In this document: positions 13,926-59,891 of the stretch, piece by piece
Numbering within the stretch: position 1 is the stretch's first letter
How the letters are laid out: every line of letters starts with the position of its first letter
DNA from: a virus
IMG/VR virus record: IMGVR_UViG_3300006111_000001
DNA length: 59,891 nt
Strand: one strand, 5' to 3'
The notes under the pieces: generated by a model
Told to the model about the DNA's origin: nothing
The model's database searches: none
Seen by the model: the letters and a program-made list of their open reading frames with translations, nothing else
Translations under genes and position numbers: made by a program

Positions 13926-14378
13926 TTACCGCCTCAATTCAAATCGCCGAAACAAGGCCCGCTTTGGTCCAAATTCAACGGGCGGACCAAGATCAAACCC
14001 CAGAATCAAAAGAAACCCACAGGCTTGCACGTAGGATGCCAGCACATAATTTTCCAATAAAGGAAACATTGCTTGCATCTTGGCCACTTCGCGCCGCCCT
14101 TCCCTTACAAAAGAAAATGGCACGCGCTCAATAGCCTCAGACGTTAAAAGCCATGGATAACCCACACCCGATAAGACCGATCCGCCAACCCCAAACATGC
14201 ACGCAATGTCGCCATCAACAAATGCCGTGCGTCGAATAATGCTACCACGAAACGCCTTAAACAGCGCCCGATTGGGCGACATGCCCACGGACGTTAATTC
14301 TAATTTATCACCCCGACGCAGCTTATCTGCCAACATCGAAACGTGATTTAATTGCGCGGGAACAATTTGATACCTCAC
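13926..14378 (-). CDS. Small virion protein (T7 gp13-like by position)
   Basis: 150 aa; directly downstream of the tail-tubular-B-like gene; synteny only. Confidence 0.35.
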   Translation of the reverse strand: MRYQIVPAQLNHVSMLADKLRRGDKLELTSVGMSPNRALFKAFRGSIIRRTAFVDGDIACMFGVGGSVLSGVGYPWLLTSEAIERVPFSFVREGRREVAKMQAMFPLLENYVLASYVQACGFLLILGFDLGPPVEFGPKRALFRRFELRR

Positions 14379-17300: not shown

Positions 17301-17524
17301 GGGATCAAAACAGGCGGCAATGCAGCATTATTGCCCAGCGACCCTTGTTTGCATTGACCCACAAAAGCCGTTCCCGCGCGCGATGCAGCGCCGCCGCGAT
17401 AGGACGCAAAGAAATTGCGCAGCGTCGAACAACCTTTGCGGTATTTATCAAGGTCTGTCCGGCCAAATAATGACGGCGATAATTCACCAGCATTTAGGGC
17501 ATTTTGTAAAATGGGCGCTGTCAT
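14375..17524 (-). CDS. Tail tubular protein B-like (nozzle)
   Basis: 1049 aa; follows the gp11-like ORF with 1-nt spacing. N-terminus (MTAPILQNALNAGELSPSLFGRTDLDKYRKG...) resembles podovirus tail tubular/nozzle N-termini; beta-rich. Confidence 0.5.
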   Translation of the reverse strand: MTAPILQNALNAGELSPSLFGRTDLDKYRKGCSTLRNFFASYRGGAASRAGTAFVGQCKQGSLGNNAALPPVLIPFQYSVTQGIALEFGDNYLRFAIDGAYVTETPIPIYGFNNVSPALISVNNLWAPGDWVYASGIGGIPEVNGRLFVIGTRSPIGVTLLDPLTGGNVDATNWPLWTGGGTLARIYEVSTPYAASDLPLLKWTQSADVMTLTHPSYPPYDLTRINYNNWTLTQTSFDVAIAAPTALFASASSVTTSTTSFYYQYVATAVDAVTGQESIASPPYTVASVNISAQAGTIRINCNPVTTAESYNFYRAPVSYASPPVGGQIYGYIGTSRGVCFTDANITPDYTVSPPIHTNPFATSSVTSINVTNPGSGYSTAGVTVSISSTNGSSFAGTVVVIDGQIQWVTIDNGGHGYSTSDTLSFIDSTGSGAQGTIQVGPSTGTYPGVCAYFQQRRFYASTYNNPDTYFASQPGAFTNMDRSIPTKADDAIVGTPWSQQVNGIQWMINMPGGLVVLTGRGAWQLSGSGQSGTAITPSNQFAAPQAYTGCSPTIRPIPVNFDILYVQEKGSIVRDLSYNFFTNIYTGTDLTVLSNHLFDGHTIVRWDWCEEPNKLLWAVRDDGILLNLTYLKEQDVYAWSRHDTNGLFKSVCSISEPPVDAAYFVVQRYIPGAGVNAYYLERMNDRLWETIDDAWCVDAGLSYTQNQPETYASVLSATGTPTLQQPVLAYGGQNYSDTTYARIDDPTGSGAIGTVTVTAGAITAVGVIGTLTGYTNPKFVVVDPTNQGGGAVVNIFSLNVTTFSTSAAVLSNTAGYGQAGDVIRIGGGLLTVLSYIDSSHLSVQVVRPITQTFPNDPNNLPIPQSPGTWSIATPITTVYGLNHLEGMTVSILADGVVQAPQVVSGGTVTLSVAASNIVVGLGFTAQLQTMYLDFPAQVTVQGRRKVAYNATVRVENSGSVFEVGTNQPDQSVQPGNATVTWLNMTQFAAPVGTNNPLQPYALFTGDIYNNINDGLGGTKGQIAVQQTQPLPLTVLAMVPWFDVGDSAG

Positions 17525-21051: not shown

Positions 21052-22092
21052 TCAGACTAGGGTGGCTTCGGTGTTTACGAGCGTGTCGCAAACACGAATG
21101 GGGATGCCACGGAACTCGACAACCGGCTCACCGGCATACTCCGTGGGTTTCAACAACACGTTCTTGTCGCGGATAGCCTGAATGTCCAGGTACTCGCGGA
21201 CGGTACGGTTGACATAGAATGCCGGGCTGATACCGGGCGCCGGTTCATCCGGAGCATCCGTTTCCGTAATGCCAGATGCGCGCTTGGTCAGCGTCGGTAA
21301 ACGCACAACCGCCTTGCTCATGTAATAGAACAGGTCAGGCGGCGTTGAACCTTGCAGACCGACCGTTGTGGTGTCAATATTGGCAATGCGGCAAATATAA
21401 CGCCAATCCTTGGTGACCAAACCCGCATTCCATTGGAAATACGAGGTATAGGCCGGGAAGGGATTGTTGGCGGCGTCATAACCCGGAACCACATCCCCAC
21501 GATCTTCAAACACCAGACCAGCCTTCGACCCTTGCGGGAAAATGCCAAAGCAAGTGTTGTCACCCCAGCCAACAAGCCAGATTGAAGCGTTTGACGACCC
21601 GGTGCCACCGGCGTCAATCACGTTCTGAGCATTGGCGGCAGTGGTGGCCGTCTTGGTATTAAAGCGCGGCGAGAAACCCGTGAACTGGGTCGGAGCCGTG
21701 GACACGTTGCCATAGAACAGCGTGGTTGCCATTTGCTGGCTCAAACCTTCCAAATGGGCGTTATCTTCCGACATGCGAACTTGTGCGACCTTGCCGCCCA
21801 ATTCCGCCACCATCTTGTCAACTTGGCTATAAGCAGCCAATTGGCCAATGGCATCGGTCACTTGCGCCGTGCGCGACTTGGTGTAAGGAACGCCACCATA
21901 AGCCGCGCGCCAGGTGCCTTGCGGCAGACCGGTGCGGATCGTGCTTTTGTGACCAGTCGGCAGGTTGGATTCAACCCACAGCATGTCCTTAAACACTTCG
22001 TTGCACTGAGACAACAATTCAGCAATTTCCGCCACCGACCCATCCGGGTCCATGCGACGGGTCACGTCCAGAAGGGAAAGGTAAGCCATCAA
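21052..22092 (-). CDS. Putative major capsid protein
   Basis: 346 aa (T7 gp10A is 345 aa), directly after a scaffold-like acidic protein and before a terminator-like hairpin; position and size only. Confidence 0.5.
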   Translation of the reverse strand: MMAYLSLLDVTRRMDPDGSVAEIAELLSQCNEVFKDMLWVESNLPTGHKSTIRTGLPQGTWRAAYGGVPYTKSRTAQVTDAIGQLAAYSQVDKMVAELGGKVAQVRMSEDNAHLEGLSQQMATTLFYGNVSTAPTQFTGFSPRFNTKTATTAANAQNVIDAGGTGSSNASIWLVGWGDNTCFGIFPQGSKAGLVFEDRGDVVPGYDAANNPFPAYTSYFQWNAGLVTKDWRYICRIANIDTTTVGLQGSTPPDLFYYMSKAVVRLPTLTKRASGITETDAPDEPAPGISPAFYVNRTVREYLDIQAIRDKNVLLKPTEYAGEPVVEFRGIPIRVCDTLVNTEATLV

Positions 22093-28776: not shown

Positions 28777-28938
28777 CTAACCCCCGCTCAATTTGGCAAA
28801 AATAACGCGCCAATGATTGGGCATCGGATCAGAACCAACCACCGCCCATCCGGCAGCACCATGCGCGTTTAATCGTTGAGCCAATTCTTCCGGTGTCATC
28901 CGTGGGAAATCGACCACGTTATACTCGTATGTGTTCAT
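28777..28938 (-). CDS. Small protein translationally coupled to portal
   Basis: 53 aa (MNTYEYNVVDFPRMTPEELAQRLNAHGAAGWAVVGSDPMPNHWRVIFAKLSGG); its ATG overlaps the portal TGA (ATGA). Not in ORF track. Confidence 0.3.
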   Translation of the reverse strand: MNTYEYNVVDFPRMTPEELAQRLNAHGAAGWAVVGSDPMPNHWRVIFAKLSGG

Positions 28939-30800
28939 TGACTGCCCCCGTTCCCAATGCCGTGCAGCATGGCTTGAACCGCGTTTTGCCCCCCGCCCAC
29001 GTCAATATCCGATAGTGTTTTGGCCCCTTGAACCGCCGCCAGGCTGGCTTGCCCTTGTTGCTGCGCTTGCATCTGCGCCGCGCGTTGCTGACGCAATGCC
29101 GCAACCTTCTCAGGCGAATTAAGGATATGTTTGGGAATAAATAAATCATCCGCGTATTCGCGCATCCAGGCATCCCGATCCCAAATATCAGCGATGGACG
29201 GATCACCCGCTTGCATGTTCCCAGCCGTACCAGCAAACCGCTCAAGCGCGGACGTGGACGAGGCTTTTTGCGCCAAGGCCAACATGCCCACAAACTCAAT
29301 TCCGATATTCACGCCCTGTAACGATTTGGGCAGCGGCGGCAGCAAACCCTTGCGTTGCATAATCGCAAACACCCGCTTAACCGCAGGTGCTAGGGCTTCA
29401 TTCTGTAACCGCTCAATCACCGGACCCAGCACTTGCAGCTTTTCTTGTTGCCGTTGTGCAACTTCATAAGCGGTCATGTTCTTGTTCGATGCCGTTTCCA
29501 GCATCATGAACAGGTCATTAAAGAACCCCTCTTTGATCCGCTGTTGAATTGCGGCCAAGTCTTGCATCATGTGATCAATGTTGGGCTGAACCGTATAAAT
29601 CGGTCGCATGCCCTTGCCATTGTCCAATTGATTCACATAAGTCACTTTGCCGGGCAGGATCGAGGAAGGCTCATTCTTCAAATCCATCGAAGCAAGCATT
29701 GGCGGACGCACCATTTTTTCAATGGCTTCCGCTTTGCGCATTGTCTCGACTTGCAACTGCATAATGTCCGGGAGCACGTCCATGCCCACCGAACGCCCAT
29801 AAGCATCATTGGACGTTGTGGCCCAGCGTGGAGCGTAATGCGGTTGGTCTAAGAAGCCCCGCATGGATAGGGGATAAGCCCCACCGGCACCCCAGACCCA
29901 ATAGACCTCGCGCCAGACAAAATCCCCATCCACGACGCCGACATTGCCGGAGCCATTAGGCGTCTTAATGGGAAAATTTGGCTCAATCGCATGCGCCACG
30001 GTCCGTTCGACTTCAAGCGAACCGCCCTTTTCCATCCACAGCTTTTGAATGTCAGACGGGCAATTCTCAATCCCAAACATTTCCACAATCGCGGAAACGG
30101 TCATAACAAATTGGCGATAAAGAGATTCAACCCGATTGGCCGATGACGAAGCCAAGAAATACTCACCGCAGCATGGCGTATAAGCACGGATCACATCTTC
30201 ATCATCCTCGTAAAGAATGACCGGACCCGTCCCAAAGGTCACCAAATCTTCAAACATTTGGGCGCCAGCGTCATAGAAGTTCGACCGGCCCATGACCTCG
30301 TAAACGCGGTTCTCGCATTCTTCAAACCAATCAACTGCGTCATCATCCATATCTGAACGATCAAGCAGCCCAGGCTTTAATTTGAACCACGGGCGAGATG
30401 GAGACATTAAACCGCTCATCATACCAGCCGCACACTTACGCATGGCCAGCGTGCCCGTAGGATCGACAATCGCGTCATTAATAGGCGAGCCGCGCACCAT
30501 GCTATTGGGTGTCGGCATTGCATTGTTAATAAAAATGCCCCGGCGCGGCAGGATATAGGTTTCAAGGATCGACCAATGCGACGCCCAGCTTTGCCGCCAG
30601 GATCGAAGCATGGCCAGCCGTGTCTCTAAATGCCCGCGCAGGATCAGCCAGTCATTGCCTTGCGTTACTTCGCGCACCGAAGCTTTGGCCGGTGTCATGG
30701 CTAATGCTTTTGGCCCGGCGCTTTCATACGCGACCTCGCGCGCCTTACGGCCCGGCTTGGAGCGTGTATCCGGACGGTCTGTAACCGCAGCGTCACTCAT
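28935..30800 (-). CDS. Portal protein
   Basis: 621 aa; position immediately after terminase; size and composition consistent with podovirus portal/connector proteins. Confidence 0.55.
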   Translation of the reverse strand: MSDAAVTDRPDTRSKPGRKAREVAYESAGPKALAMTPAKASVREVTQGNDWLILRGHLETRLAMLRSWRQSWASHWSILETYILPRRGIFINNAMPTPNSMVRGSPINDAIVDPTGTLAMRKCAAGMMSGLMSPSRPWFKLKPGLLDRSDMDDDAVDWFEECENRVYEVMGRSNFYDAGAQMFEDLVTFGTGPVILYEDDEDVIRAYTPCCGEYFLASSSANRVESLYRQFVMTVSAIVEMFGIENCPSDIQKLWMEKGGSLEVERTVAHAIEPNFPIKTPNGSGNVGVVDGDFVWREVYWVWGAGGAYPLSMRGFLDQPHYAPRWATTSNDAYGRSVGMDVLPDIMQLQVETMRKAEAIEKMVRPPMLASMDLKNEPSSILPGKVTYVNQLDNGKGMRPIYTVQPNIDHMMQDLAAIQQRIKEGFFNDLFMMLETASNKNMTAYEVAQRQQEKLQVLGPVIERLQNEALAPAVKRVFAIMQRKGLLPPLPKSLQGVNIGIEFVGMLALAQKASSTSALERFAGTAGNMQAGDPSIADIWDRDAWMREYADDLFIPKHILNSPEKVAALRQQRAAQMQAQQQGQASLAAVQGAKTLSDIDVGGGQNAVQAMLHGIGNGGSQ

Positions 30801-42457: not shown

Positions 42458-43120
42458 ATGGAAACTTTAGGTAAACGAGTGCGCGCCCGTCGCGCTGATT
42501 TAAAATTGTCTCAAGCGGAACTTGCCAGCCGCGTGGGCATATCTCAGCCGTCTTTATCAGCCATTGAAAATGACGAGACTCAAGGCACCACCAAAATATT
42601 AAAGCTGGCAGAAGTATTGGAATGTGACCCCAATTGGCTTTTGATGGGCAATAAACTAAAGTTTAGCGTCCCCAACAAACTTACAACTTATAAAAATAAT
42701 CCTGTTGCAAACGAATCAGTTTTTACTACCATCAATATGGGCAAAAGAGACTTACCTATTAGAGGTCTGGCTCAAGGGGGTGATGGGGTGCTAACATTTG
42801 ACCAAGACGCAATAGATTATACTTTTCGTCCATCTAATTTAGTCGGCATAGATGAAGCGTTTGCGCTTTATGTTACCGGCGACTCCATGGGCGAAGTCTT
42901 GATCCCAGGCACTTTGTTATTGGTTCACCCCAAACAAGAACCAAAAATTATGGATTTTGTCGTTATTGAAAAAATTGACCGATCCGTAATCGTTAAACGA
43001 TTGGTTCGCAGATCGGCCAATAGCGTCACCTTGCGCGAATACGACCCGCCCAATGATTTTGTGCTTTCTCGCAGCGAAATTCGAATGATGTTGCGGGTTT
43101 GCGGGACGGCCATGGAATGA
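42458..43120 (+). CDS. CI-like repressor (HTH_XRE plus S24 LexA-like peptidase domain)
   Basis: 220 aa; N-terminal …LKLSQAELASRVGISQPSLSAIENDET… HTH; C-terminal …FALYVTGDSMGEVLIPGTLLLVHP…VIVKRL… with Ser and Lys catalytic-dyad context. Confidence 0.8.
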   Translation: METLGKRVRARRADLKLSQAELASRVGISQPSLSAIENDETQGTTKILKLAEVLECDPNWLLMGNKLKFSVPNKLTTYKNNPVANESVFTTINMGKRDLPIRGLAQGGDGVLTFDQDAIDYTFRPSNLVGIDEAFALYVTGDSMGEVLIPGTLLLVHPKQEPKIMDFVVIEKIDRSVIVKRLVRRSANSVTLREYDPPNDFVLSRSEIRMMLRVCGTAME

Positions 43121-44179: not shown

Positions 44180-44740
44180 ATGCTATTCACAATCCCTTTC
44201 CGTTCATGGACTGGCAAAGCCGCATTTGAGGTCGAGATCGCCGACGATGTTGAACCGCGCTTTCAAATGCGCGCTGCCTTGTCGGTTGTGATCGGCAAAG
44301 CCAAAGAAAAGGGCGAACGTGCCAATCTCAGCCGTGCCGATCTCAGCGGTGCCGATCTCAGCGGTGCCTATCTCAGCGGTGCCGATCTCAGCGGTGCCTA
44401 TCTCAGCGGTGCCAATCTCAGCGGTGCCGATCTCAGCGGTGCCGATCTCAGCGGTGCCTATCTCAGCGGTGCCGATCTCAGCGGTGCCTATCTCAGCCGT
44501 GCTAAAGGTGCATTTTCGCTTGGAACGCCGGATGGTTGGTCGGCTGTTGCTTGGCTGCGCGACGGTTTCTTATCGATCCGCGTCGGTTGCCGAGATAAGC
44601 GGTTAGATGAAGCCCGCGCATATTGGGCCAATAAAAATGACCGGTGCGAAGTTATGGCGGCGCTGGATTACGCTGAAATAATTGCGCGCCTTCGTGGTTG
44701 GGCCATTGAAGCACCGGCTGAACAAGTGGCAGCGGAGTAA
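44180..44740 (+). CDS. Pentapeptide-repeat protein
   Basis: 186 aa; central run of ~12 consecutive pentapeptides A(D/N/Y)LSG ([25 protein letters not shown]…) flanked by unique N- and C-terminal segments. Confidence 0.75.
44327..44503 (+). repeat. Tandem 15-bp repeat (~11.8 copies) encoding the pentapeptide repeats
   Basis: Near-identical units ctcagcggtgccgat / ctcagcggtgcctat / ctcagcggtgccaat in head-to-tail array. Confidence 0.9.
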
Positions 44741-50023: not shown

Positions 50024-50341
50024 ATGAACTTCCCGCGCCCAATCCCAGCCAACAGGCAAGATGAAATTGAAATTCATCGGCCTTGGGCACGGCTGCCAAA
50101 TTGGCCGCGATTGCTACCAGAACTTTTGGCGGCTGCCTATGTCGGCGGTGTCTCGATCGGTACTTTCCGAACGGAGGTCGAACAAGGCATTTGGCCCCCG
50201 CCAATCCGGCGCGGACGGCGCATATTTTGGGATTTGGGCGACCTTGATAGGGCAGTTGACCGGCTAAAGGGCATTGTATCTGATACTCTTCCTGATCAAC
50301 CTTCGGGCCTCGGGGACATAAATTGGGACAAATCCGCTTGA
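50024..50341 (+). CDS. Excisionase / AlpA-like HTH protein
   Basis: 105 aa; …LLAAAYVGGVSIGTFRTEVEQGIWPPPIRRGRRIFWDLGDLDRAVD… resembles Xis/AlpA DNA-binding domains; immediately upstream of integrase. Confidence 0.5.
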   Translation: MNFPRPIPANRQDEIEIHRPWARLPNWPRLLPELLAAAYVGGVSIGTFRTEVEQGIWPPPIRRGRRIFWDLGDLDRAVDRLKGIVSDTLPDQPSGLGDINWDKSA

Positions 50342-51375
50342 GCCTCAGCGTGCCACGGCTCCATATCGTCGGGGACCGCTTTTATTGGCGCCCCACGGCC
50401 CCTATCCGTGCTTTGGGGTTTTCTTACGAGGCTTTGGGCAAAGACCCCATGAAAGCCGCTGCAAGGGCCAGGGAGCTTAATGAACAGGTCGAGCGGGCCA
50501 AACTAGGGTTGGATGCCAGGACCAAGCGCGGCGACACGGTGGCAGCCCTGATCGACGCCTATCAGTCCTGCCCCCGGTATAAGAGCCGGGCGGAAACCAC
50601 CCGAAAGGGCTATGACCATTTCCTAAAACACATCCGCGCGCTTGCCGGGCATGTCATTGTGGCGACCATTGACCGGCCCGGCATGTTGCAGACCTATGAG
50701 AAGCTAATCGCCGCCAGGGGCCTTTATACCGCCAATGCGTATATGAAGGTCTGGCAGATATTGCTTAAGCACGCCTATGACCTCGGATGGCGCAAAGATA
50801 ACCCCGCCGCCGGGCTTGGGCTTCAAACGCCGCCGCCGCGAGAGCAAGTCTGGACGGTCGATCAAATCCTTGCATTTTGTGATGCCGCCGTGGAAATGGG
50901 CAGGCCGTCCATGCGTCTGGCGATGCTATTGGCCTATGACCTTGGGCAACGCCCTGGCGACTATATCAAGCTGACTTGGACCACTTACACCGGGTCCGGG
51001 TTTATGATTAAGCAGTCCAAGACCAAAACCCGCGTCAATGCGCCGTTCGAAAACCCGTTTCTTTGGGCTGAAATCGACGCCATGCCGCGCAAACACTCGC
51101 ATGTCTTGATTTGTGAGGGGACCAAAGCCCCCTATAAGGCTGATTATTTCCGGCACCTATGCACCAAGATCAGGCGCGCGGCCAAACTGCCGGAACAGCT
51201 TCAATTCCGCGATCTGCGCCGGACAGCCGCCACGGAAATTGGCAATGCCGGGGCAACAGATGATCAGTTACGGGCGCTCCAAGGCTGGAAAACCCGGAAT
51301 CAGGCGGCGACTTATGTGGTGGTATCGTCAGCCGGTGCCGAAGGCGCTCAAGCGAAACGGAGGGCGAACAGGTAA
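50323..51375 (+). CDS. int: Tyrosine integrase
   Basis: 350 aa; N-terminal SAM-like and C-terminal catalytic patterns (…GQRPGDYIKLTW…, …FRDLRRTAATEIGNAG…LQGWKTRNQAATYV…). Confidence 0.8.
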   Translation: MGQIRLSLSVPRLHIVGDRFYWRPTAPIRALGFSYEALGKDPMKAAARARELNEQVERAKLGLDARTKRGDTVAALIDAYQSCPRYKSRAETTRKGYDHFLKHIRALAGHVIVATIDRPGMLQTYEKLIAARGLYTANAYMKVWQILLKHAYDLGWRKDNPAAGLGLQTPPPREQVWTVDQILAFCDAAVEMGRPSMRLAMLLAYDLGQRPGDYIKLTWTTYTGSGFMIKQSKTKTRVNAPFENPFLWAEIDAMPRKHSHVLICEGTKAPYKADYFRHLCTKIRRAAKLPEQLQFRDLRRTAATEIGNAGATDDQLRALQGWKTRNQAATYVVVSSAGAEGAQAKRRANR

Positions 51376-51983: not shown

Positions 51984-52107
51984 CGCGAACAATATCGGTT
52001 TAGGCTGACACAGAATCGGACACATCATTTGTCAGGGGTGTTCTGGTTTTGCCCCATATATTATTCATTATTGGGTTTATTGAACATTATATGGGTCATC
52101 CCGGCTC

Positions 52108-52362
52108 CTATTTTGCTTCTCGCGCTAATTTGCGCGCTGGAATGGTTTTACAAAAATCAATTATTTGGATACAAGATTTACAAGTGACTTTGCCGCGCTC
52201 AGATTTGACAAAGAAATCATTACCTTCTTCGCCATCAAGCGAAAACCCACAAAGCGTATAATCTTCACCAGTCACAGAACCAGAATGAGCGATACCATTA
52301 TTTTCTATCCAAATCGCAATCATCGGTCGCTCCTTAATAATAAATGGACAAATCGCCTGCAC
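52108..52362 (-). CDS. Hypothetical small Cys-containing protein
   Basis: 84 aa; AT-richer accessory region. Confidence 0.3.
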   Translation of the reverse strand: MQAICPFIIKERPMIAIWIENNGIAHSGSVTGEDYTLCGFSLDGEEGNDFFVKSERGKVTCKSCIQIIDFCKTIPARKLAREAK

Positions 52363-52612
52363 ACGCTTGTCCCATGTCTTTCGTGGTGCAGTACGGATGG
52401 GTCATAGCAGCTCCTTATTTCATGTAACTGGTCACGCCGGATATTTTTTCCATATCGGCTTTAATAACTTCATTGACCACATGATAATGCCATCGCCAAA
52501 GCAATGAAATGACTTCATCTCTAGCGCGTCCGCGAGGCATAACCCACAAACCAAAATGGATTATATGTCGCGTCAAAGAATATCGAAAATTTTTCACGGC
52601 GACTCGCTCCTT

Positions 52613-52825
52613 TTATGCCGCTTTGATCATTGCCGTATAGCAAATGGCAGTTGTTTGTTTAGGCGGCGGGTAATCTTCGAACGGCGACAATGCGTCTATT
52701 TTGTTTTGATCCATGAGTTCTAACGCAGCTTGTAACCCAGCCGATATTTGTTTGTCAGTTGGTTCTTTGGGAACAATGACAAACCCTTGGGGGCATAGAT
52801 AAGTTAAAAGTTTAATCCACATCAT
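52613..52825 (-). CDS. Hypothetical small protein
   Basis: 70 aa. Confidence 0.3.
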   Translation of the reverse strand: MMWIKLLTYLCPQGFVIVPKEPTDKQISAGLQAALELMDQNKIDALSPFEDYPPPKQTTAICYTAMIKAA

Positions 52826-53010
52826 CGGCTCCTTAATAATTGGCGCGGGCTATCGCAGTCCACCATCCGGTAGCTGGATTATCTCTTACCGTACCCCCGC
52901 GCAGCACAGTCGTATTCTGTCGGAAATGTCCCCTATGGGCGTCATCAGCGGTCATCCGGCTCTGAATGACTTGAGATTGACCAAGACAGAAATCAGTCAA
53001 TTCGATGCTC

Positions 53011-53235
53011 CTATTGTGCAGTTTGTTTAAACCCAAAATATTCTGGATCGTCTGAAATTAAGTCAAATACTTTTCCATATTTCAAATCTAGCTTTTCATG
53101 GACAAGTGCCCAATGTGCTCCATCTGACAGGTCAAGCGTTTCGACCTCATCCATTATTTCTTTGATGCGCTTTTTAGACGGGTTCATGGTCGCTCCTTTA
53201 TTCCCAATTTTCATTATTAGCGCGGTCAACCGCAT
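53011..53235 (-). CDS. Hypothetical small protein
   Basis: 74 aa. Confidence 0.3.
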   Translation of the reverse strand: MRLTALIMKIGNKGATMNPSKKRIKEIMDEVETLDLSDGAHWALVHEKLDLKYGKVFDLISDDPEYFGFKQTAQ

Positions 53236-53395
53236 CTACGCCAATCGCCAATTTCTGCGCCTCGGTGAAAGTGTCCCATATTTCTCTTGTTTTGTAACCA
53301 ACGTGATTGCGCCAATTATGCACTCGACCGCCTTTCCCCCAAGATTGGGGAACTTCGAGGATTTCTTTGATAAGATATTCATCAAGCTCGTCCAT
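53198..53395 (-). CDS. Hypothetical small protein
   Basis: 65 aa. Confidence 0.3.
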   Translation of the reverse strand: MDELDEYLIKEILEVPQSWGKGGRVHNWRNHVGYKTREIWDTFTEAQKLAIGVDAVDRANNENWE

Positions 53396-53404
53396 TACCG
53401 GCTC

Positions 53405-54031
53405 CTAATTTGCTTTGCGCTTTTTGCAATCGCGCAATCGTGTGTAAATAATGCTTTCGCTGACTTTCAGCTTGGCCGCGATTTGCTTGATCGTCAGCCC
53501 TTCCTTGCGGAGGGCTTTAATCTGTTTCAGCTTTTCAGCGGTTAGTTTCTTGGGCGCACCTTGCCAGCCGCCCTCACGTTCTTTAAACGCCTGAATACCG
53601 GCTTTAGTCCGTTCAATGGTTAGCTGGCGTTCAAATTCCGCGACAATGGCGAATAGGCCAAGGATTAGCTTGCCGGTTGCTGTGCTGAAATCGAATTGCT
53701 CTGTCAGGGATTTAAAAGACGCGCCCGCATCGGAAATCTGGTCTAGCCGTGCGTATAGTTCACGCATATTGCGGGCCAGCCGATCTAGACGCCAGACCAC
53801 AAGGGTATCGCCCTCGCGCAAATCTTTCATGGCGTGTTCAAGTGCCGGTCTGGACTTAGACGCCGCCGATTTTTTTTCGATGTGGAGATTGTCGGGCAAC
53901 ACCCCGGCACGCTTAAGCGCGTCCACTTGAAGGTCAAGTTTCTGATCTTCTGTGAACACGCGGGCATACCCGATTAATCGGGTCGCGGGCAGGTCTGGCA
54001 ATTTTGTGCGTCGTTTCAAAACCATGACCAC
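53405..54031 (-). CDS. Serine recombinase (Hin/Gin invertase-resolvase family) with Phe in place of the catalytic Ser
   Basis: 208 aa; strong family match (…DTLVVWRLDRLARNMRELYARLDQISDAGASFKSLTEQFDFSTATGKLILGLFAIVAEFERQLTIERTKAG… plus C-terminal HTH), but the nucleophile motif reads GYARVFTEDQ (codon ttc) instead of GYARVSTxxQ. Confidence 0.75.
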   Translation of the reverse strand: MVMVLKRRTKLPDLPATRLIGYARVFTEDQKLDLQVDALKRAGVLPDNLHIEKKSAASKSRPALEHAMKDLREGDTLVVWRLDRLARNMRELYARLDQISDAGASFKSLTEQFDFSTATGKLILGLFAIVAEFERQLTIERTKAGIQAFKEREGGWQGAPKKLTAEKLKQIKALRKEGLTIKQIAAKLKVSESIIYTRLRDCKKRKAN

Positions 54032-54119
54032 ATTTTACATGAAACGGCCAGATAGTCAACAAATAGCGTATGATTTTTACACTGGAATTAGCGAATGGCT
54101 ATTGCAGTCTAATTTGATC

Positions 54120-54140
54120 CGTGTATAATGGGGACACCAA
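54120..54140 (+). promoter_or_regulatory. Candidate extended -10 promoter for the plus-strand accessory operon
   Basis: …tgTATAATggggaca… (TGnTATAAT) ~25 nt upstream of the 54156 ATG, followed by GGAG RBS. Confidence 0.35.
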
Positions 54141-54155
54141 CACGGAGACACGACA

Positions 54156-54374
54156 ATGACCATCGAAAAGAATATTTCAATTTTTGACGGAAACGACCAG
54201 GAACACGCCGAATTTATTCGCGGCTGCGTCAAAAGCCTTGGCGGTGAAATCCCCGCTCATTGGTCAGACGAAGCGGTAATCGAGTTTTTTAATACCCTGT
54301 CTAACGATGCCCCGCGCATTTATACGGACATGGAAAAAGCAGATATGAAATATCAAGCCCAAATGGCTGAATAA
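54156..54374 (+). CDS. Hypothetical protein
   Basis: 72 aa; first gene of the plus-strand accessory operon. Confidence 0.4.
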   Translation: MTIEKNISIFDGNDQEHAEFIRGCVKSLGGEIPAHWSDEAVIEFFNTLSNDAPRIYTDMEKADMKYQAQMAE

Positions 54375-54388
54375 GAAAGGCCCGACTA

Positions 54389-54652
54389 ATGCGTTATGTT
54401 CTTGAGGGTGAATGGAGCGGATACGTAAGCGCCCAACAAAAGGTGCATCATCGGGAAATTGTGCCCGCATCTTTGGTTAAGGATATGCGACTGCACACAA
54501 TCCAATTTACCGATGGAACTTATTTGAGGATTAAGTGTTGGGAAGCCAAGCCGCGTGAACGCATTGAAACCAAAGACCAGTATGGCCGGTTGATACGTGA
54601 CGCAATTCGGATTGGCAAACCTTTTGTCACCGTCAGCGAACTCAAGCAATAA
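54389..54652 (+). CDS. Hypothetical protein
   Basis: 87 aa; preceded by the conserved TAA-AAAGGCCC-N5-ATG junction. Confidence 0.4.
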   Translation: MRYVLEGEWSGYVSAQQKVHHREIVPASLVKDMRLHTIQFTDGTYLRIKCWEAKPRERIETKDQYGRLIRDAIRIGKPFVTVSELKQ

Positions 54653-54663
54653 AGGCCCGCTCC

Positions 54664-55182
54664 ATGCGCGACATTCACAAAGACATTGGCGAAAAGCTAA
54701 AAGCAACGCTTGATGCTGCAATAGGCGAGACTGCGCTTAAAGCCGTCAAAGAAAAGACAAAAGAAATTATCCAAGAAATTGAAGATGATCTTGAATACCG
54801 CGTCAAAGATGATCTGGCTTACAATTTGGTCGAATATGTGGCCGATATGGCAAACAAAACAATTGACGCTTTATTGCGCGGCAATGAAAACGAAATGCGC
54901 CGGTATCTTGGTTGCGAACGTGGCGCTTGGACAGGTCGAAGCGATGCCGATGTATGTGGTGCCAAGCGTCCAGACGATCAATGGCACCAAGTCATAAACG
55001 GCACCTTGTCCGAATATGGCGGCTTAGATTTACGGCGCAAAATCGCAGATGCTTACGCCGATCTTATCAAAAATGAGCGCATTCTTGATTTGGAAAATCA
55101 GGTGAAATGCCTTGTTGCCCAGGTTAATAAATTGGAAGCCCAAAAACGTGACATTTGGGAACGCCGTGGCGAATACGCTTAA
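54664..55182 (+). CDS. Hypothetical coiled-coil protein
   Basis: 172 aa; preceded by the conserved AAAGGCCC junction. Confidence 0.4.
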   Translation: MRDIHKDIGEKLKATLDAAIGETALKAVKEKTKEIIQEIEDDLEYRVKDDLAYNLVEYVADMANKTIDALLRGNENEMRRYLGCERGAWTGRSDADVCGAKRPDDQWHQVINGTLSEYGGLDLRRKIADAYADLIKNERILDLENQVKCLVAQVNKLEAQKRDIWERRGEYA

Positions 55183-55204
55183 CCCTAGAATAAAGGCCCC
55201 GACT

Positions 55205-55456
55205 ATGACCTTATCAGATTTAGTTGACCAAGCATCCGATCTTGCCGCAGACCTGCACAACAAGGCCGCATTGATTGAGCGCGGTAAAGCCAATCTTAAC
55301 CTAAGCGGCGATGCGGATCATTCCGTGATCCAAGCGTTTACATCACTGGCAACGGCGGCGGCTGCAATGGCAAACGCTTTGATAATGCAAAGCGCATTGA
55401 CCAAGCAAAAAGCCGACAATGACGCAATCCGCGCCACCCTCAAAGCTAAACAATAA
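55205..55456 (+). CDS. Hypothetical protein
   Basis: 84 aa from ATG at 55205 (in frame within track ORF 55112..55456); preceded by AAAGGCCCCGACT. Confidence 0.35.
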   Translation: MTLSDLVDQASDLAADLHNKAALIERGKANLNLSGDADHSVIQAFTSLATAAAAMANALIMQSALTKQKADNDAIRATLKAKQ

Positions 55457-55467
55457 AGGCCCAGACC

Positions 55468-55650
55468 ATGATCCGCAGACGCGCCAAAATCACCATTACG
55501 GTATCCGTTGATTTGGATGATGTGCCGGGTGCTTACTACCAGCCCGAAGATTGGGTGCAAATGATGACAGGTGAAATTTTGTCTCGCGCCAATCACTATA
55601 ACCCAAAACTTGAAGCCACTGACATTGAAGTCAGTCGCATCACTCAATAA
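55468..55650 (+). CDS. Hypothetical protein
   Basis: 60 aa; preceded by AAAGGCCCAGACC. Confidence 0.35.
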   Translation: MIRRRAKITITVSVDLDDVPGAYYQPEDWVQMMTGEILSRANHYNPKLEATDIEVSRITQ

Positions 55651-55661
55651 GGCCCCGCGCT

Positions 55662-56834
55662 TTGATTCGCTCATTCAACTACATCCCAGCGCGTGCAGCC
55701 GGTCAAATTTTGTTTGACGGATTCCCATATCAATCCGCGATTGAGTGGCCCAATTTCATTCATGGCCAATGTCAAAACATTCAAGCCAATGGTCAGCCCG
55801 ATCAATTTGGATGGCGATACAAAACCATTGACGGCACCCCTTACCTTTTGGCCGATGACCCATTTGTGGTCAAATTAAAAAACGCAATGGTTCAGCGCGT
55901 CAATTTTGGTCAAGACCGCTGGCACGTTGCCGTCAGCCCAGGGGTTTGTATTGAAGAAACCTATTATTCGGGCGAATGGTTTAACCGTTTTTGCGGTCAA
56001 ACCATGAGAATCCCCACCAATGCCGGATCGTTTGACGTGCATGTCATGGAAGATATTGCGCCAGAGTCGGTGTCATCCGTCCCCAGCGTATTATTGGCTC
56101 ATCAATGGGACACGAATTATGCGCATTGCCTAATGGAAACCGTGGGAAAATTGTTTTTAGCAGAACATTGGGACGATCATTTGCCGCAGCTAATCTGGAA
56201 CCCGACAACCCCATATCAGCGCGAGATTGCGGATTTGCTATCAATCAAATACGTTCCGCAAACCCAAAAAGCCGTTCAATACGATGAATTATATGTCATT
56301 TCCCAATTTGCCCATAACGGGATTTGCGCGGAACAGTTCAAACAAATCCGCGCGCTGTTTCAACAAAGGCTTTGCGACAAAATCCCTTATTTCTCAAATC
56401 CCCCAGTTACATCAGGCAACAAGCGCATTCTGATTTCCAGAAACGACGCCACCAGCCGCCGTATTGCTAATGAATCAAACATAATGACCGCCCTGGCTCC
56501 CATGGGCTTTGAGCGTGTCACGTTGAGCAATTTAAGCGTGCTCGACCAGGCCAAGCTATTTCATTCAGCATCAATCATTGTGGCGCCACACGGCGCCGGA
56601 TTAATGAATATGCTGTTTGCCAGCCCCAGCACCGCCTTGATTGAAATTGCCCCCGAATCCTACCAGCACCCTTTGTTCTGGTACGTCGCCAAGTGGTTGG
56701 GCCATTGGTACGGGCGAATCATCACCCCGGATCACGGTTCCGAAAAAGACATGATTGTTGACATTGCGGCGGTTAAAAACGCCATTGACGCCGCCATATC
56801 GTCTAAAAGTGTACGGTCATCACTTGTTGCATAG
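55662..56834 (+). CDS. Glycosyltransferase, GT61/DUF563-like
   Basis: 390 aa; C-terminal …RILISRNDATSRRIANESNIMTALAPMGFERVTL…LFHSASIIVAPHGAGLMNMLFASP… resembles the DUF563/GT61 core. Confidence 0.55.
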   Translation: MIRSFNYIPARAAGQILFDGFPYQSAIEWPNFIHGQCQNIQANGQPDQFGWRYKTIDGTPYLLADDPFVVKLKNAMVQRVNFGQDRWHVAVSPGVCIEETYYSGEWFNRFCGQTMRIPTNAGSFDVHVMEDIAPESVSSVPSVLLAHQWDTNYAHCLMETVGKLFLAEHWDDHLPQLIWNPTTPYQREIADLLSIKYVPQTQKAVQYDELYVISQFAHNGICAEQFKQIRALFQQRLCDKIPYFSNPPVTSGNKRILISRNDATSRRIANESNIMTALAPMGFERVTLSNLSVLDQAKLFHSASIIVAPHGAGLMNMLFASPSTALIEIAPESYQHPLFWYVAKWLGHWYGRIITPDHGSEKDMIVDIAAVKNAIDAAISSKSVRSSLVA

Positions 56835-56889
56835 CTAAAAAGGCATCAAGGTAAATAAAAACGCCTTTTAACCCCTTGGAGTAACGACA

Positions 56890-57378
56890 ATGAAAAACGC
56901 CCTATTAGCTTTATTGGCCCTAATGTTTATTGCACCCCCAGCCATGGCCGGAGGAACGCCGTGTCAAATGTTCGCCGGGTATTTTCGCTGTAACGGCGGC
57001 AATCAGGCTTTATGGGTGCCAAATTCCGGCCTGTATTGGAACCCCAGCGAAGGCGGTACAAGCTGGACCATCCAACAATCCACCAATGGCCACACAATCC
57101 TGATTTCTGGCCTTGGATGGAGCGATACCGGCAACGGCAATGCAGATTGGTATTTGGCCAGACTAGAGCCGGTTGACACCGAAACGGCGCCTAACGTTTA
57201 TACGTCAACGTCAACAATTCAGTGCATCGGCGGTCAAGGTCTGTCATCGCCCAATTATCTTGCGCCCAATTGCGTTTTGACCGGCAAATCCATTTCGCTA
57301 ACGCTGGAAAGCACAACGGCTGGCACTTTGGTTTACGGCACCAGAACCAGCCACGTTGAAAATTACGTCAATTTTTAG
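56890..57378 (+). CDS. Secreted protein (signal peptide)
   Basis: 162 aa; MKNALLALLALMFIAPPAMAGG leader; last gene of the plus-strand accessory operon. Confidence 0.45.
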   Translation: MKNALLALLALMFIAPPAMAGGTPCQMFAGYFRCNGGNQALWVPNSGLYWNPSEGGTSWTIQQSTNGHTILISGLGWSDTGNGNADWYLARLEPVDTETAPNVYTSTSTIQCIGGQGLSSPNYLAPNCVLTGKSISLTLESTTAGTLVYGTRTSHVENYVNF

Positions 57379-58084: not shown

Positions 58085-58355
58085 GGATTAACTTGCGCCG
58101 GATGGCATCCACCAACGGCACCAAAGACGCCCCCACAATCAGCGCCACTTCATCGCCAGGCACAACCAATTGACCGGCGCTCAGGCAATGAATGACCCAT
58201 TGCAACACAAGCCCAGCGCCAGCCGTGGACATGGCAACAGCGGACGTGGAAGTATTTTGACTGGTGTTCATAACATTACCCTGATAAAGCCGACGCAGCC
58301 GCTTGAGCAAGCTGATTATCGGTATATGGATCAGACCCGTTTTCGTGATGGACAA
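58044..58355 (-). CDS. Hypothetical membrane protein
   Basis: 103-aa track ORF with hydrophobic helices; overlaps neighbours, start uncertain. Confidence 0.3.
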   Translation of the reverse strand: MSITKTGLIHIPIISLLKRLRRLYQGNVMNTSQNTSTSAVAMSTAGAGLVLQWVIHCLSAGQLVVPGDEVALIVGASLVPLVDAIRRKLIREIDPQSLQTNGV

Positions 58356-58710
58356 TGGCGCGCGTCAACGGGATCAAAACCAATTGAGACGACAAATTCA
58401 CATATTCATCCGGTCCGCATCCGGTCAAATTGCACACATCGCTTTTATATGCCTCAGTGTCATTTTCCGATGGGGGCGCCCATCGATCAATTGCGCCAGA
58501 AATCGTATTAATGCCGTGCAGCACTTGATAATTTTTCAACGTAATCATCAGCGCCCGCAAACCATCTTCCGGCGTATCAAATTCGCAAAATTGATCGTCG
58601 GAACCCGGCACCACTTGCCCTTTCCAAATGGTTTTGGAAAGTTTGATATTGCCAGGATTGTTTAATCGAATGCCGCGCGCGGTCATTTTTTGATCCATCG
58701 TTTTTCGCAA
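58276..58710 (-). CDS. Lysis-cassette protein, candidate endolysin/cell-wall hydrolase
   Basis: 144 aa; conserved-looking N-terminal …RGIRLNNPGNIK… motif; flanked by holin-like and spanin-like genes. Enzymatic class not recognised with confidence. Confidence 0.35.
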   Translation of the reverse strand: MRKTMDQKMTARGIRLNNPGNIKLSKTIWKGQVVPGSDDQFCEFDTPEDGLRALMITLKNYQVLHGINTISGAIDRWAPPSENDTEAYKSDVCNLTGCGPDEYVNLSSQLVLIPLTRAIVHHENGSDPYTDNQLAQAAASALSG

Positions 58711-58907: not shown

Positions 58908-59759
58908 TTACCAAAAGATTGCCGCGTAACCCGCTGTTGCGTTACCACCTGATTGCGCGCTTGTACCAGCAGCGGCACCACCGCCACCACCACCATATCC
59001 AGAAGCATTACCGCCCGCTGCACCAGCGGCAGTAGCGTTGGCTCCATCGCCACCTTTGCCTAAGTACCCACCACCACCACCACCACCAGCCGTGCCGGAA
59101 GCTGCGCCCGATCCCCCCAAAGATGAACTTGAAAATAATGAGGCTGCACCATAGCCGCCTTGATAGACTGTACCTGAGTTGCGTTGACCAGCACCACCAC
59201 CACCTGGATAACCGCCGTCAGTAGAAGTGGTTGATCCAGAATAAATACCGCCCGGACCGCCACCACCAGACATGCCCCCTGGATAAACAAGCGCTTTATT
59301 AAGGCCACCACCGGCTGAGTAAGTAACACCACCAACAACTAACGTGGTAGCTGTGCCATTACCGCCAATTGCACCACTTGCAGCAGCGCCAGCAGCGCCA
59401 ATTGTTATGGTTGCACTAGACCCAATGTAGACGGGGAAAAATTCAACGCCACCAGCACCACCGCCGCCGCCGCCCTCTGTTCCACTTGCAGGGGTGCCAT
59501 TGCCAGCAGCACCCCCGCCAACAAGTAAAACGTAATAAACGCCATACCCTTTGCCTTGCGTGACCGGATTAAATGTCCCGCTTGCCGTGTAGGCAACTTG
59601 ATAATTAAGACCGCTTAGGCCAATAAATGCTTTGCCAGCAGCGGGACCCGCCCCAGGCGCAACATTCAACGGCGTTGCAACCGCAAAGCCTAACTGACCA
59701 ATTGCGAATAAAAGCGCAATTAATCCAAAGCGAAGATTCTTAAGCATTTTAGAAATCAC
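58908..59759 (-). CDS. Glycine-rich fibre-module protein with signal-peptide-like N-terminus
   Basis: 283 aa; MISKMLKNLRFGLIALLFAIGQLGFAVA leader; long poly-Gly/Ala/Ser tracts; precedes the lysis cassette. Confidence 0.5.
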   Translation of the reverse strand: MISKMLKNLRFGLIALLFAIGQLGFAVATPLNVAPGAGPAAGKAFIGLSGLNYQVAYTASGTFNPVTQGKGYGVYYVLLVGGGAAGNGTPASGTEGGGGGGAGGVEFFPVYIGSSATITIGAAGAAASGAIGGNGTATTLVVGGVTYSAGGGLNKALVYPGGMSGGGGPGGIYSGSTTSTDGGYPGGGGAGQRNSGTVYQGGYGAASLFSSSSLGGSGAASGTAGGGGGGGYLGKGGDGANATAAGAAGGNASGYGGGGGGAAAGTSAQSGGNATAGYAAIFW

Positions 59760-59771
59760 CGCAAACAGAGG

Positions 59772-59891
59772 TCAGATTGATATAGGTTGACGTGGAAACG
59801 GTCGGAGTCGCCGTCAACGTATCGCCGCTTTTCAAAAACAAATATGGATTTCCATAATTGTCCAATGGCAAACCCTGCCAAGTTGCAGAAT
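59772..59891. repeat. Terminal direct repeat, right copy (identical to 1..120)
   Basis: Exact 120-nt match to window start; implies a unit genome of ~59771 bp. Confidence 0.9.

What the first reader, a model, noticed from the sequence alone, without database searches (positions are those of the whole stretch)
53405..54031. Hin/Gin-family serine recombinase with the nucleophilic serine replaced by phenylalanine
The protein otherwise matches invertase/resolvase family sequence throughout, but the catalytic motif reads GYARVFTEDQ (codon gtg ttc aca) where the family has GYARVSTxxQ. A single T-to-C change would restore Ser. Either the enzyme is inactivated, possibly freezing an invertible segment or retaining only DNA-binding function, or this is a base-call error.
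Basis: partly seen in the sequence, partly recalled or inferred. Interest (0 to 1): 0.5.

Follow-up and report, generated by a model that had tools for sequence, protein, structure and literature searches.

The report
Phage serine recombinase lacking its catalytic serine
A complete wild temperate-phage genome carries an otherwise intact Gin/Hin-like DNA recombinase gene in which one C-to-T change has replaced the DNA-cutting serine with phenylalanine; the change is real and fixed in the sampled population, it almost certainly kills the enzyme, and no invertible segment is left "frozen" by it.

Summary
The ORF on the minus strand (53405-54025, 206 aa from the conserved ATG) is a small serine recombinase (Pfam Resolvase E 6e-38 plus HTH_7; 41% identical to Mu Gin). 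Its motif reads GYARVFTEDQ, with TTC at 53954-53956.

It is not a base-call error. The identical protein sits on 18 contigs from at least nine assemblies or runs. These carry several SNP haplotypes, all with Phe. No TCC allele was found.

Phe is not normal for the family. All 119 other top protein hits, 74 viral loci and 82 bacterial loci have Ser. One relative at 86% identity has TCC ACA at this position, one transition away.

Nothing else is damaged. The other 14 catalytic-pocket residues are kept, 67 of 69 highly conserved columns agree, dN/dS is 0.035, and the lineage shows no acceleration.

No inverted-repeat pair, gix/hix-like site, alternative orientation or second recombinase exists in the 59.8-kb circular genome.

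Most likely this is a recent loss-of-function allele in a near-clonal phage population. The protein can still bind DNA at most; a unique conserved dyad spans its own -10 box and start codon. Selected retention as a regulator cannot be excluded. Interest is modest.

The parts
53405..54025 (-). Small serine recombinase homologue, 206 aa plus stop, carrying S24F (nucleophile lost). The catalytic domain is about 53573-53974 and the C-terminal HTH about 53444-53554.
   Evidence: ORF, Pfam, PDB; phrog_125 'DNA invertase', E 3e-57; 41% identity to Gin, 31% to gamma-delta resolvase.
53954..53956 (-). TTC (Phe) codon at the position of the nucleophilic Ser (S10 of gamma-delta/Tn3 resolvase). It is one C-to-T transition from the TCC seen in relative P0003.
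   Evidence: Ser in all relatives.
54032..54059 (-). Sigma-70-like promoter TTGACT-16-TAAAAT for the recombinase. The -10 hexamer ends 7 nt before the A of the ATG and there is no Shine-Dalgarno sequence, so a leaderless mRNA is inferred.
   Evidence: 10 of 12 match. The same geometry is seen in relatives L014, L016 and L010.
54012..54046 (.). Perfect 7+7 inverted repeat CGTTTCA-N21-TGAAACG spanning the -10 box, predicted start site and start codon. It is a candidate operator (autoregulatory site) and occurs once in the genome.
   Evidence: 1 match, 0.01 expected, 1 of 100 shuffles reached it. Arms are kept at 6-7 of 7 with a 21-22 nt spacer in L014, L016 and L010. The protein that binds it is unknown.
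54081..54108 (.). Weak dyad ACTGCAAT-N12-ATTCCAGT. Its left arm is invariant in four related phages and overlaps the TTGCAG -35-like hexamer of the divergent promoter. The P0004 phage has a perfect 26-bp version at the same distance from the start codon.
   Evidence: It is not distinguishable from chance by arm matching, and the right arm is not conserved in L014 or L016.
54102..54129 (+). Candidate divergent promoter TTGCAG-16-TATAAT for the rightward cargo operon.
   Evidence: Read directly. The -35 matches only 3 of 6, so the scanner did not list it. It is conserved in L016, L014 and L010.
54156..57378 (+). Divergently transcribed accessory ('moron') operon. It holds small ORFs, a GT61-family glycosyltransferase (55662-56834) and a 162-aa ORF (56890-57378). 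GC content is lower than in the rest of the genome.
   Evidence: (PF04577).
53198..53395 (-). First of several small ORFs directly downstream of the recombinase on the same strand, probably in the same transcript.
   Evidence: phrog_9546, E 7e-13.
50323..51375 (+). Tyrosine integrase. The phage has its own integration enzyme, so the serine recombinase is not needed for lysogeny.
   Evidence: PF00589; phrog_1, E 3.5e-29.
59772..59891 (+). 120-nt exact repeat of bases 1-120. The window is a closed-circle assembly of a 59,771-bp phage genome.
   Evidence: repeat D2. One search shows L001 mapping across the junction. The ENA contig length of 59,912 equals 59,771 + 141.

Best explanation
This is a genuine, population-fixed missense allele (S24F, TCC to TTC) of a phage-borne small serine recombinase. 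The hydroxyl that attacks the DNA backbone and forms the covalent phosphoserine link is gone, so the protein cannot cleave or exchange DNA strands. This is inferred from the established mechanism of the family.

The rest of the protein is intact: fold, dimer/tetramer helix, the other active-site residues and the C-terminal helix-turn-helix. The gene keeps a good promoter. The protein is therefore probably still made and can still bind DNA.

My preferred reading is a recent loss of function that rose to fixation in a near-clonal freshwater-type temperate podovirus-like phage. Recombinase activity appears dispensable for this phage. It has a tyrosine integrase and a CI-like repressor elsewhere, and no invertible segment.

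Shown: the substitution, its reproducibility, its uniqueness among relatives, the intactness of the rest of the protein, and the absence of paired sites. Inferred: loss of catalysis, continued expression and DNA binding, and recency.
For: Sequence and family assignment.

The allele is real. The exact protein is on 18 contigs from ENA ERZ27271966/87/97, JGI 3300004685/3300006113/3300025449 and Logan SRR5260759/841/891. The contigs are 99.9-100% identical to the window. They carry different SNPs (56757, 56771, 59609, 50943, and a cluster at 59154-59193), none of them in the gene. Only the TTC allele is in IMG/VR, and the 90% protein cluster has a single member.

The change is unique. Ser is present in 119/119, 74/74 and 82/82 relatives, including those at 92%, 86% and 69% identity. 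P0003 has TCC ACA.

The consequence is known. All S10-equivalent mutants are inactive. S10A resolvase cleaves at <0.0001 of the parent rate but still binds site I, somewhat less well (PMC2794168).

The rest of the protein is intact. Y22, R24, Q30, Q35, E52, S55, R61, D75, D83, R84, R87, E134, R135 and R141 (208-aa numbering) are kept. 67 of 69 columns with at least 90% consensus agree.

Nothing is available to invert. There is no inverted-repeat pair or gix/hix-like site, all crossing contigs are colinear, and there is no second serine recombinase.

The genome is complete and circular and has its own integrase and repressor.
Against: There is no sign of relaxed selection. dN/dS against the 92% relative is 0.035 with synonymous sites saturated (dS about 1.6). 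The window lineage has 7 private amino-acid changes against 5 in its sister. This fits a very recent mutation, but it fits continued selection on a non-catalytic role equally well.

The population is nearly clonal, so polymorphism data have no power to separate the two.

A conserved dyad over the gene's own promoter and the intact HTH would be expected if binding still matters.

No reads were inspected, so minority TCC alleles cannot be excluded.

The natural substrate of the Ser-bearing relatives is unknown, so what exactly was lost is undefined.
Confidence: 0.6

Rival explanations
1. Pseudo-recombinase retained by selection. The catalytically dead protein is kept because its site-specific DNA binding is useful. 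It would act as an autorepressor and/or regulator of the divergent accessory (glycosyltransferase) operon, as Tn3/gamma-delta resolvase represses tnpA and tnpR from res. Alternatively it could act as a dominant-negative blocker of related recombinases.
For: The HTH is intact and all other conserved residues are kept. No excess of nonsynonymous change is seen on this lineage. The unique dyad CGTTTCA-N21-TGAAACG spans the -10 box, start site and ATG; it is unexpected by chance and conserved in four phages. The 130-bp control region lies back-to-back with a cargo promoter. S10 mutants keep site binding (PMC2794168). The allele is fixed across several haplotypes and samples.
Against: Only one near-clonal lineage has the change. 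The nearest relatives, with the same control region, all keep Ser, so any regulatory role would already exist in the active enzymes and does not require loss of catalysis. No evidence shows which protein binds the dyad. Every observation fits a recent neutral loss equally well.
Confidence: 0.25
2. Sequencing or assembly artefact: the true codon is TCC.
For: It is a single-base difference from a functional codon. No raw reads were examined.
Against: The exact Phe protein was recovered in 18 contigs built by different assemblers and pipelines from different runs. The contigs have distinct SNP haplotypes. No Ser version appears in a 15-billion-protein collection cluster or in IMG/VR.
Confidence: 0.02
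3. The enzyme is still active. Phe would be tolerated because another residue (for example the adjacent Thr) serves as nucleophile, or because this clade uses a different chemistry.
For: None directly. Thr follows the Phe (FT), and the rest of the pocket is intact.
Against: The same Thr is present in all Ser-bearing relatives, and in Gin and gamma-delta resolvase. Mutants of the S10 equivalent in several serine recombinases are all inactive (PMC2794168). The clade is otherwise 100% Ser.
Confidence: 0.03
4. A frozen phase-variation switch. The recombinase used to invert a segment (tail fibre or promoter), and the mutation locked it in one orientation.
For: The closest characterised relatives are DNA invertases. 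Two contigs from what may be one sample end 22 and 52 nt upstream of the gene.
Against: Only chance-level inverted repeats occur within 6.7 kb or genome-wide. No gix/hix-like site exists. Seven contigs cross the region colinearly. Ser-bearing close relatives also show one arrangement and no partner site within +/-10 kb. The neighbours are regulatory and accessory genes, not tail fibres. The other ends of the two truncated contigs lie in a tandem repeat, which is typical assembly fragmentation.
Confidence: 0.05

Closest known systems
Gin (phage Mu), Hin (Salmonella), and the Cin/Pin DNA invertases
   Same: The domain order is the same: an N-terminal resolvase-type catalytic domain and a C-terminal HTH. 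This is the best solved-structure match (Gin 4m6f/3uj3, E 4e-34, 41% identity). The PHROG family is 'DNA invertase'. The gene is phage-borne.
   Different: The nucleophilic Ser is replaced by Phe. There is no pair of inverted 26-bp crossover sites and no gix/hix consensus. The gene is not adjacent to tail-fibre or flagellin genes. It has an 18-residue N-terminal extension. The arm motif is GAPKK instead of GRP. Dependence on an enhancer and Fis is unknown.
Tn3 / gamma-delta resolvase, and their laboratory S10 mutants (S10A and others)
   Same: The active-site constellation is homologous: Y6, R8, Q14, Q19, S39, R45, D59, D67, R68, R71, E118, R119 and R125 are all matched. The gene is preceded by a short control region shared with a divergent transcription unit, as res lies between tnpA and tnpR. 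Loss of the S10 hydroxyl gives a protein that binds its site but cannot cut (PMC2794168).
   Different: Identity is only 31%. No three-subsite res could be recognised. The element is a phage, not a transposon. Here the S10 loss is natural and fixed in a wild population, not engineered.
Resolvase-like small serine recombinase of filamentous phage phiRSM (integration/excision)
   Same: It is a small serine recombinase used by a phage for something other than inversion. It acts on a single phage-borne site. It is cited in PMC8987985.
   Different: The present phage has a tyrosine integrase. No att-like partner was identified, and the enzyme here lacks the nucleophile.
Decayed invertase genes of cryptic prophages (for example the truncated pin-family genes of E. 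coli K-12; from memory, not checked here)
   Same: Both are phage-derived invertase homologues that have lost activity.
   Different: Those genes sit in defective prophages and are truncated or otherwise decayed. This one is a single missense change in a complete, circularly assembled phage genome, with no other damage.

Membership tests
Small serine recombinases (resolvase/invertase group, PF00239 + HTH_7) | N-terminal resolvase-type catalytic domain by sequence | tested here: met
   PF00239 E 6.3e-38, covering profile positions 2-143 of 145. PDB hits are Gin, gamma-delta, Tn3 and Sin.
Small serine recombinases (resolvase/invertase group, PF00239 + HTH_7) | C-terminal helix-turn-helix DNA-binding domain | tested here: met
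   HTH_7 scores 25.1 bits against a cut-off of 23.8, residues 160-196.
Small serine recombinases (resolvase/invertase group, PF00239 + HTH_7) | Nucleophilic serine (S10 of Tn3/gamma-delta resolvase) in the G-Y-x-R-V-S-T motif | tested here: not met
   The motif is GYARVFTEDQ with TTC at 53954-53956. Ser is present in all ~275 relatives checked.
Small serine recombinases (resolvase/invertase group, PF00239 + HTH_7) | Remaining conserved active-site residues (Y6, R8, Q14, Q19, D36, S39, R45, D59, D67, R68, R71, E118, R119, R125) | tested here: met
   The gap-free alignment to gamma-delta resolvase and the invariant-column list show all present. D36 is Glu here, as in the whole Ser-bearing clade.
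DNA invertase subclass (Hin/Gin/Cin/Pin) | Two ~26-bp crossover sites in inverted orientation flanking an invertible segment | tested here: not met
   Genome-wide and local repeat searches give only 71-85% chance-level pairs. The gix/hix consensus gives 0 matches with up to 3 mismatches. Each candidate dyad is single-copy.
DNA invertase subclass (Hin/Gin/Cin/Pin) | Both orientations of the segment present in a population | tested here: not met
   All seven contigs that cross the region are colinear with the window. Read-level data were not available.
DNA invertase subclass (Hin/Gin/Cin/Pin) | Fis-bound recombinational enhancer about 100 bp from one site (PMC3798978) | not testable with these tools
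   The host and its Fis are unknown. No island of extra nucleotide conservation appears inside the gene.
DNA invertase subclass (Hin/Gin/Cin/Pin) | Closer in sequence to invertases than to resolvases | tested here: met
   41% identity to Gin against 31% to gamma-delta resolvase. phrog_125 'DNA invertase' E 3e-57.
Tn3-type resolvase with res | Multi-subsite res (three dimer-binding sites, ~114-120 bp) next to the gene, overlapping its promoter | tested here: inconclusive
   The 130-bp divergent control region holds one significant dyad over the -10 box and ATG and one weak dyad. No repeated half-site consensus could be derived.

The most novel reading that the evidence does not exclude
A naturally occurring 'pseudo-recombinase'. 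On this reading, a wild temperate phage keeps a nucleophile-dead serine recombinase under selection purely as a sequence-specific DNA-binding regulator. Its target would be its own leaderless promoter and/or the divergent lysogenic-conversion (glycosyltransferase) operon. This would catch the exaptation of a recombinase into a transcription factor at its first step.
Probability: 0.12. Interest if true: 0.55.

Novelty: new variant of a known kind. Interest (0 to 1): 0.3.

Why it matters
Annotation pipelines call this gene a 'DNA invertase', and phase-variation screens would count it as one, yet it cannot cut DNA. This is a concrete warning that family membership by profile does not imply activity.

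Biologically it is a natural counterpart of the laboratory S10 mutants. A complete, circulating phage has lost recombinase chemistry while keeping the whole protein. This shows the activity is dispensable for that phage.

It also offers a clean pair for study: F24 against an F24S revertant, or against the 92%-identical Ser relative. The pair could show what this uncharacterised, widespread phage clade of small serine recombinases does, and whether DNA binding alone has a function.

If the allele proved to be maintained by selection, it would be an early-stage example of a recombinase turning into a regulator.

Tried and rejected
1. Exact-pattern scans with N at the middle codon base found nothing in metagenome contigs or genome contigs. 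Those collections evidently lack these samples. No host was identified and no extra alleles were found.

2. A protein-profile scan of bacterial genomes gave only relatives at 58% identity or less, across many phyla. It gave no host clue.

3. The cultured-phage collection has nothing above about 46% identity. The structural module resembles SPN1S/Ab31-type temperate podoviruses only distantly.

4. The dyad ACTGCAAT-N12-ATTCCAGT (54081-54108) first looked like a crossover site, because the P0004 phage has a perfect 26-bp version. A control showed that 7-of-8 arm matches occur in about 40% of random 260-bp windows. The right arm is not conserved in the two nearest relatives. The invariant arm coincides with a -35-like hexamer. 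It is therefore kept only as a weak candidate.

5. I tested whether 135 relatives have an inverted partner for their upstream region. The rate was 26% against 18% in control windows with 13-mers. This is too weak to call the near clade invertases.

6. Contig ends at 54047 and 54077 (L003, L004) were considered as assembly breaks at a recombination site. This was rejected. The two contigs may derive from one sample, their other ends lie in a tandem repeat, and seven other contigs read through.

7. A sliding-window conservation scan for an intragenic enhancer-like island found nothing distinctive.

8. Literature searches for the sample accessions, and for natural serine recombinases lacking the serine, returned no precedent in the held library. 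One poorly chosen query was uninformative.

Full report
**Observation**

The minus strand of the window carries an ORF at 53405-54031. Its translation contains LIGYARVFTEDQ.

The ORF is a small serine recombinase throughout:
- Pfam Resolvase domain, E 6.3e-38, covering profile positions 2-143 of 145.
- A C-terminal HTH_7 above its curated cut-off.
- Best solved relatives are Gin of phage Mu (E 4e-34) and then gamma-delta/Tn3 resolvase.
- Identity is 41% to Gin and 31% to gamma-delta resolvase.
- The PHROG family is 'DNA invertase', E 3e-57.

The gap-free alignment to gamma-delta resolvase puts the Phe exactly on S10, the nucleophile.

The true start is most likely the ATG at 54025, giving 206 aa. 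That ATG begins the identical database protein and the three nearest relatives. The upstream GTG sits 1 nt from the -10 hexamer of the promoter found.

**Is it an error?**

No. The exact 206-aa protein, Phe included, is on record on 18 contigs. Nine places were returned, from three ENA assemblies, three JGI metagenomes and three Logan assemblies of SRA runs. Some of these may share raw data.

The contigs are not copies of one another, though. They are 99.9-100% identical to the window but carry different SNPs: 56757, 56771 and 59609 in L001; 50943 in L006 and L007; 56757 in L008; and a cluster at 59154-59193 in L005. None lies in the recombinase gene. The Phe allele therefore predates this small amount of population diversity.

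A pattern with N at the middle codon base finds only TTC copies in IMG/VR. The 90%-identity cluster of the protein has a single member, so no Ser version of this gene is known.

**Is Phe normal for the family?**

No. Ser occupies the column in all 119 other listed homologues, in 74 of 74 viral loci and in 82 of 82 bacterial-genome loci. This includes the nearest relatives at 92%, 86%, 71% and 69% identity. The 86% relative has TCC ACA where the window has TTC ACA. One C-to-T transition explains the change.

**State of the rest of the gene**

All other residues implicated in catalysis by mutagenesis of Tn3 resolvase have their counterparts here. These are Y6, R8, Q14, Q19, D36, S39, R45, D59, D67, R68, R71, E118, R119 and R125 (PMC2794168). 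D36 is Glu in this whole clade.

At the 69 alignment columns where at least 90% of 119 homologues agree, the window protein agrees at 67. The two exceptions are F24 and a Met shared with its closest relatives. A count of two disagreements is ordinary for the set, where the median is 1 and the range 0-6.

Against the 92% relative the gene shows dN/dS 0.035 with synonymous sites saturated (pS 0.66, dS about 1.6). With the 86% relative as outgroup, the window lineage has 7 private amino-acid changes against 5 on the sister lineage.

Suppose the gene had drifted neutrally for even a tenth of that branch. That is roughly 0.08 substitutions per site over roughly 470 nonsynonymous sites, so dozens of replacements would be expected. 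Either the mutation is very recent, at most a percent or two of the branch, or the protein is still under purifying selection. These data cannot separate the two, and the population is too clonal for polymorphism tests.

**Consequence of the substitution**

The serine hydroxyl attacks the scissile phosphodiester and becomes covalently linked to the 5' end. Mutants of this residue in several serine recombinases are all reported inactive. S10A Tn3 resolvase has a cleavage rate below 0.0001 of the parent but still binds site I, with some reduction (PMC2794168). Loss of recombination is therefore a strong inference, and retention of DNA binding a reasonable one. The Thr after the Phe is present in all active relatives and is not a credible substitute nucleophile.

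**Genomic setting**

Bases 1-120 equal bases 59772-59891 exactly. An independent MEGAHIT contig of 59,912 nt equals 59,771 + 141 and maps across the junction. The window is thus a closed-circle assembly of a 59,771-bp genome.

PHROG searches identify the following:
- Structural and packaging genes: a tail protein (14375-17524), major head protein (21052-22092), a head-tail adaptor of portal size (28935-30800) and an internal virion protein.
- DNA metabolism: a helicase, methyltransferases and an exonuclease/annealing module.
- Lysogeny and lysis: a CI-like repressor (42458-43120), a tyrosine integrase (50323-51375) and an endolysin (58276-58710).

Cultured relatives are distant. The tail protein is 34-37% identical to SPN1S/Ab31-type temperate podoviruses. 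There is no second serine recombinase. The phage has its own integration and immunity functions elsewhere.

The recombinase is the first gene of a leftward string of small ORFs that ends near the integrase. It is divergent from a rightward accessory operon (54156-57378). That operon includes a GT61 glycosyltransferase and lies in a region of lower GC.

**Search for substrates**

- Genome-wide and local repeat searches give no convincing inverted pair; the best are 71-85% matches of chance quality.
- A gix/hix consensus finds nothing even with three mismatches.
- Every contig that crosses the region has the same arrangement.
- Ser-bearing relatives show one arrangement too, and no partner site within 10 kb.

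The idea of a frozen invertible segment is therefore not supported.

The 130-bp control region does contain conserved elements:
- A promoter TTGACT-16-TAAAAT. Its -10 hexamer ends 7 nt before the ATG and there is no Shine-Dalgarno sequence. The same geometry in three related phages suggests a leaderless mRNA.
- A perfect 7+7 inverted repeat, CGTTTCA-N21-TGAAACG (54012-54046), spanning the -10 box, start site and start codon. It is unique in the genome, expected 0.01 times by chance, and kept at 6-7 of 7 with the same spacing in the relatives.
- An invariant ACTGCAAT block. It forms a weak dyad in the window (54081-54108), forms a perfect 26-bp palindrome in the P0004 phage and overlaps a -35-like hexamer of a TTGCAG-16-TATAAT rightward promoter. 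My own control showed this dyad is not statistically distinctive.

Which protein binds these elements is unknown. An autoregulatory site for the recombinase, in the manner of res and tnpR, is the obvious hypothesis.

Homology with the nearest relatives is confined to the gene plus about 140 bp upstream and stops at the stop codon. The recombinase and its control region thus travel as a discrete mosaic module next to variable cargo. The cargo is GT61 here, and DegT-type aminotransferase, epimerase and pentapeptide genes in the P0004 phage.

**Interpretation**

I judge the following most likely (0.6). This is a recent loss-of-function allele that became fixed in a near-clonal phage population. 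It leaves a full-length, probably expressed, DNA-binding but recombination-dead protein, and recombination is dispensable for this phage.

The main rival (0.25) is that the dead protein is retained by selection as a regulator. Everything seen is compatible with that reading, but nothing requires it. The Ser-bearing relatives share the same control region.

The remaining readings are unlikely for the reasons given above: sequencing error (0.02), residual activity (0.03) and a frozen switch (0.05).

**Comparison with known systems**

By descent the protein belongs to the resolvase/invertase group and is closest to the Gin/Hin invertases. It fails the defining chemical feature of serine recombinases, the nucleophile. 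It also fails the defining architectural feature of the invertase subclass, paired inverted sites (PMC3798978). I therefore do not file it as a functional member of either.

It works, at most, like the laboratory S10 mutants of resolvase, which bind but do not cut. I found no report of a natural, population-fixed nucleophile substitution in a small serine recombinase in the held literature. That library is incomplete, and single missense knock-outs are an ordinary kind of event.

**Verdict**

The finding is real and correctly read. It is modestly interesting as a natural active-site knock-out in a complete wild phage, and as an annotation caveat. Interest is 0.3. It would become notable only if selection for the dead protein were demonstrated.

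Noticed in passing
window 1-120 and 59772-59891: An exact 120-nt terminal overlap. The window is a circular assembly of a complete 59,771-bp temperate phage genome. An independent ENA contig of 59,912 nt closes the same circle with a 141-nt overlap.
   Followed up: yes
window 44289-44528 (inside ORF 44180-44740, + strand): About eleven tandem 15-bp units (GTGCCGATCTCAGCG) encode a pentapeptide-repeat protein. Contigs L003 and L004 break inside this array. The related P0004 phage has an 83%-identical pentapeptide gene directly upstream of its recombinase.
   Followed up: partly
window 54025-54059; L014, L016 and L010 upstream regions: The recombinase gene appears to be expressed as a leaderless mRNA. 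A -10-like hexamer ends 5-7 nt before the ATG in all four related phages, and none has a Shine-Dalgarno sequence.
   Followed up: partly
window 54012-54046: The perfect inverted repeat CGTTTCA-N21-TGAAACG spans the -10 box and start codon. It is unique in the genome (0.01 expected by chance) and conserved in relatives. It is an operator-like element whose binding protein is unknown. If transcribed from further upstream, it could instead form a hairpin enclosing the AUG.
   Followed up: partly
window about 53405-54165 compared with L014 and L016: Similarity to the nearest relatives (78-79% nucleotide identity) is confined to the recombinase gene plus about 140 bp upstream. It falls to background exactly at the stop codon, so this is a discrete mosaic module next to different cargo genes in each phage.
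   Followed up: partly
window 52000-56000 and 55662-57378: The accessory region has lower GC (46-47% against about 51%). It holds a GT61-family glycosyltransferase (55662-56834) followed by a 162-aa ORF (56890-57378). This may be a lysogenic-conversion cassette.
   Followed up: no
L006 (ENA ERZ27271966 contig k141_268476), last 19 nt: The contig ends in CTGTCTCTTATACACATCT, the Nextera transposase adapter (recognised from memory). Untrimmed adapter was therefore assembled onto a public contig.
   Followed up: no
window 58908-59759 (- strand): A 283-aa glycine-rich ORF with long GGGGG runs and no PHROG match. It lies between the lysis genes and the tail-fibre genes and is probably a fibre-like structural protein.
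   Followed up: no
L010 about 10945-11025 (P0004 phage): A tRNA-like sequence on the reverse strand lies just downstream of the Ser-bearing relative's recombinase gene. It was read by eye and not run through ARAGORN.
   Followed up: no
IMG/VR loci L020-L096: Many homologues of this recombinase lie within a few kb of a viral contig end, for example L023, L028, L031, L035 and L038. This could reflect a position near prophage ends or packaging termini. It was not analysed statistically.
   Followed up: no
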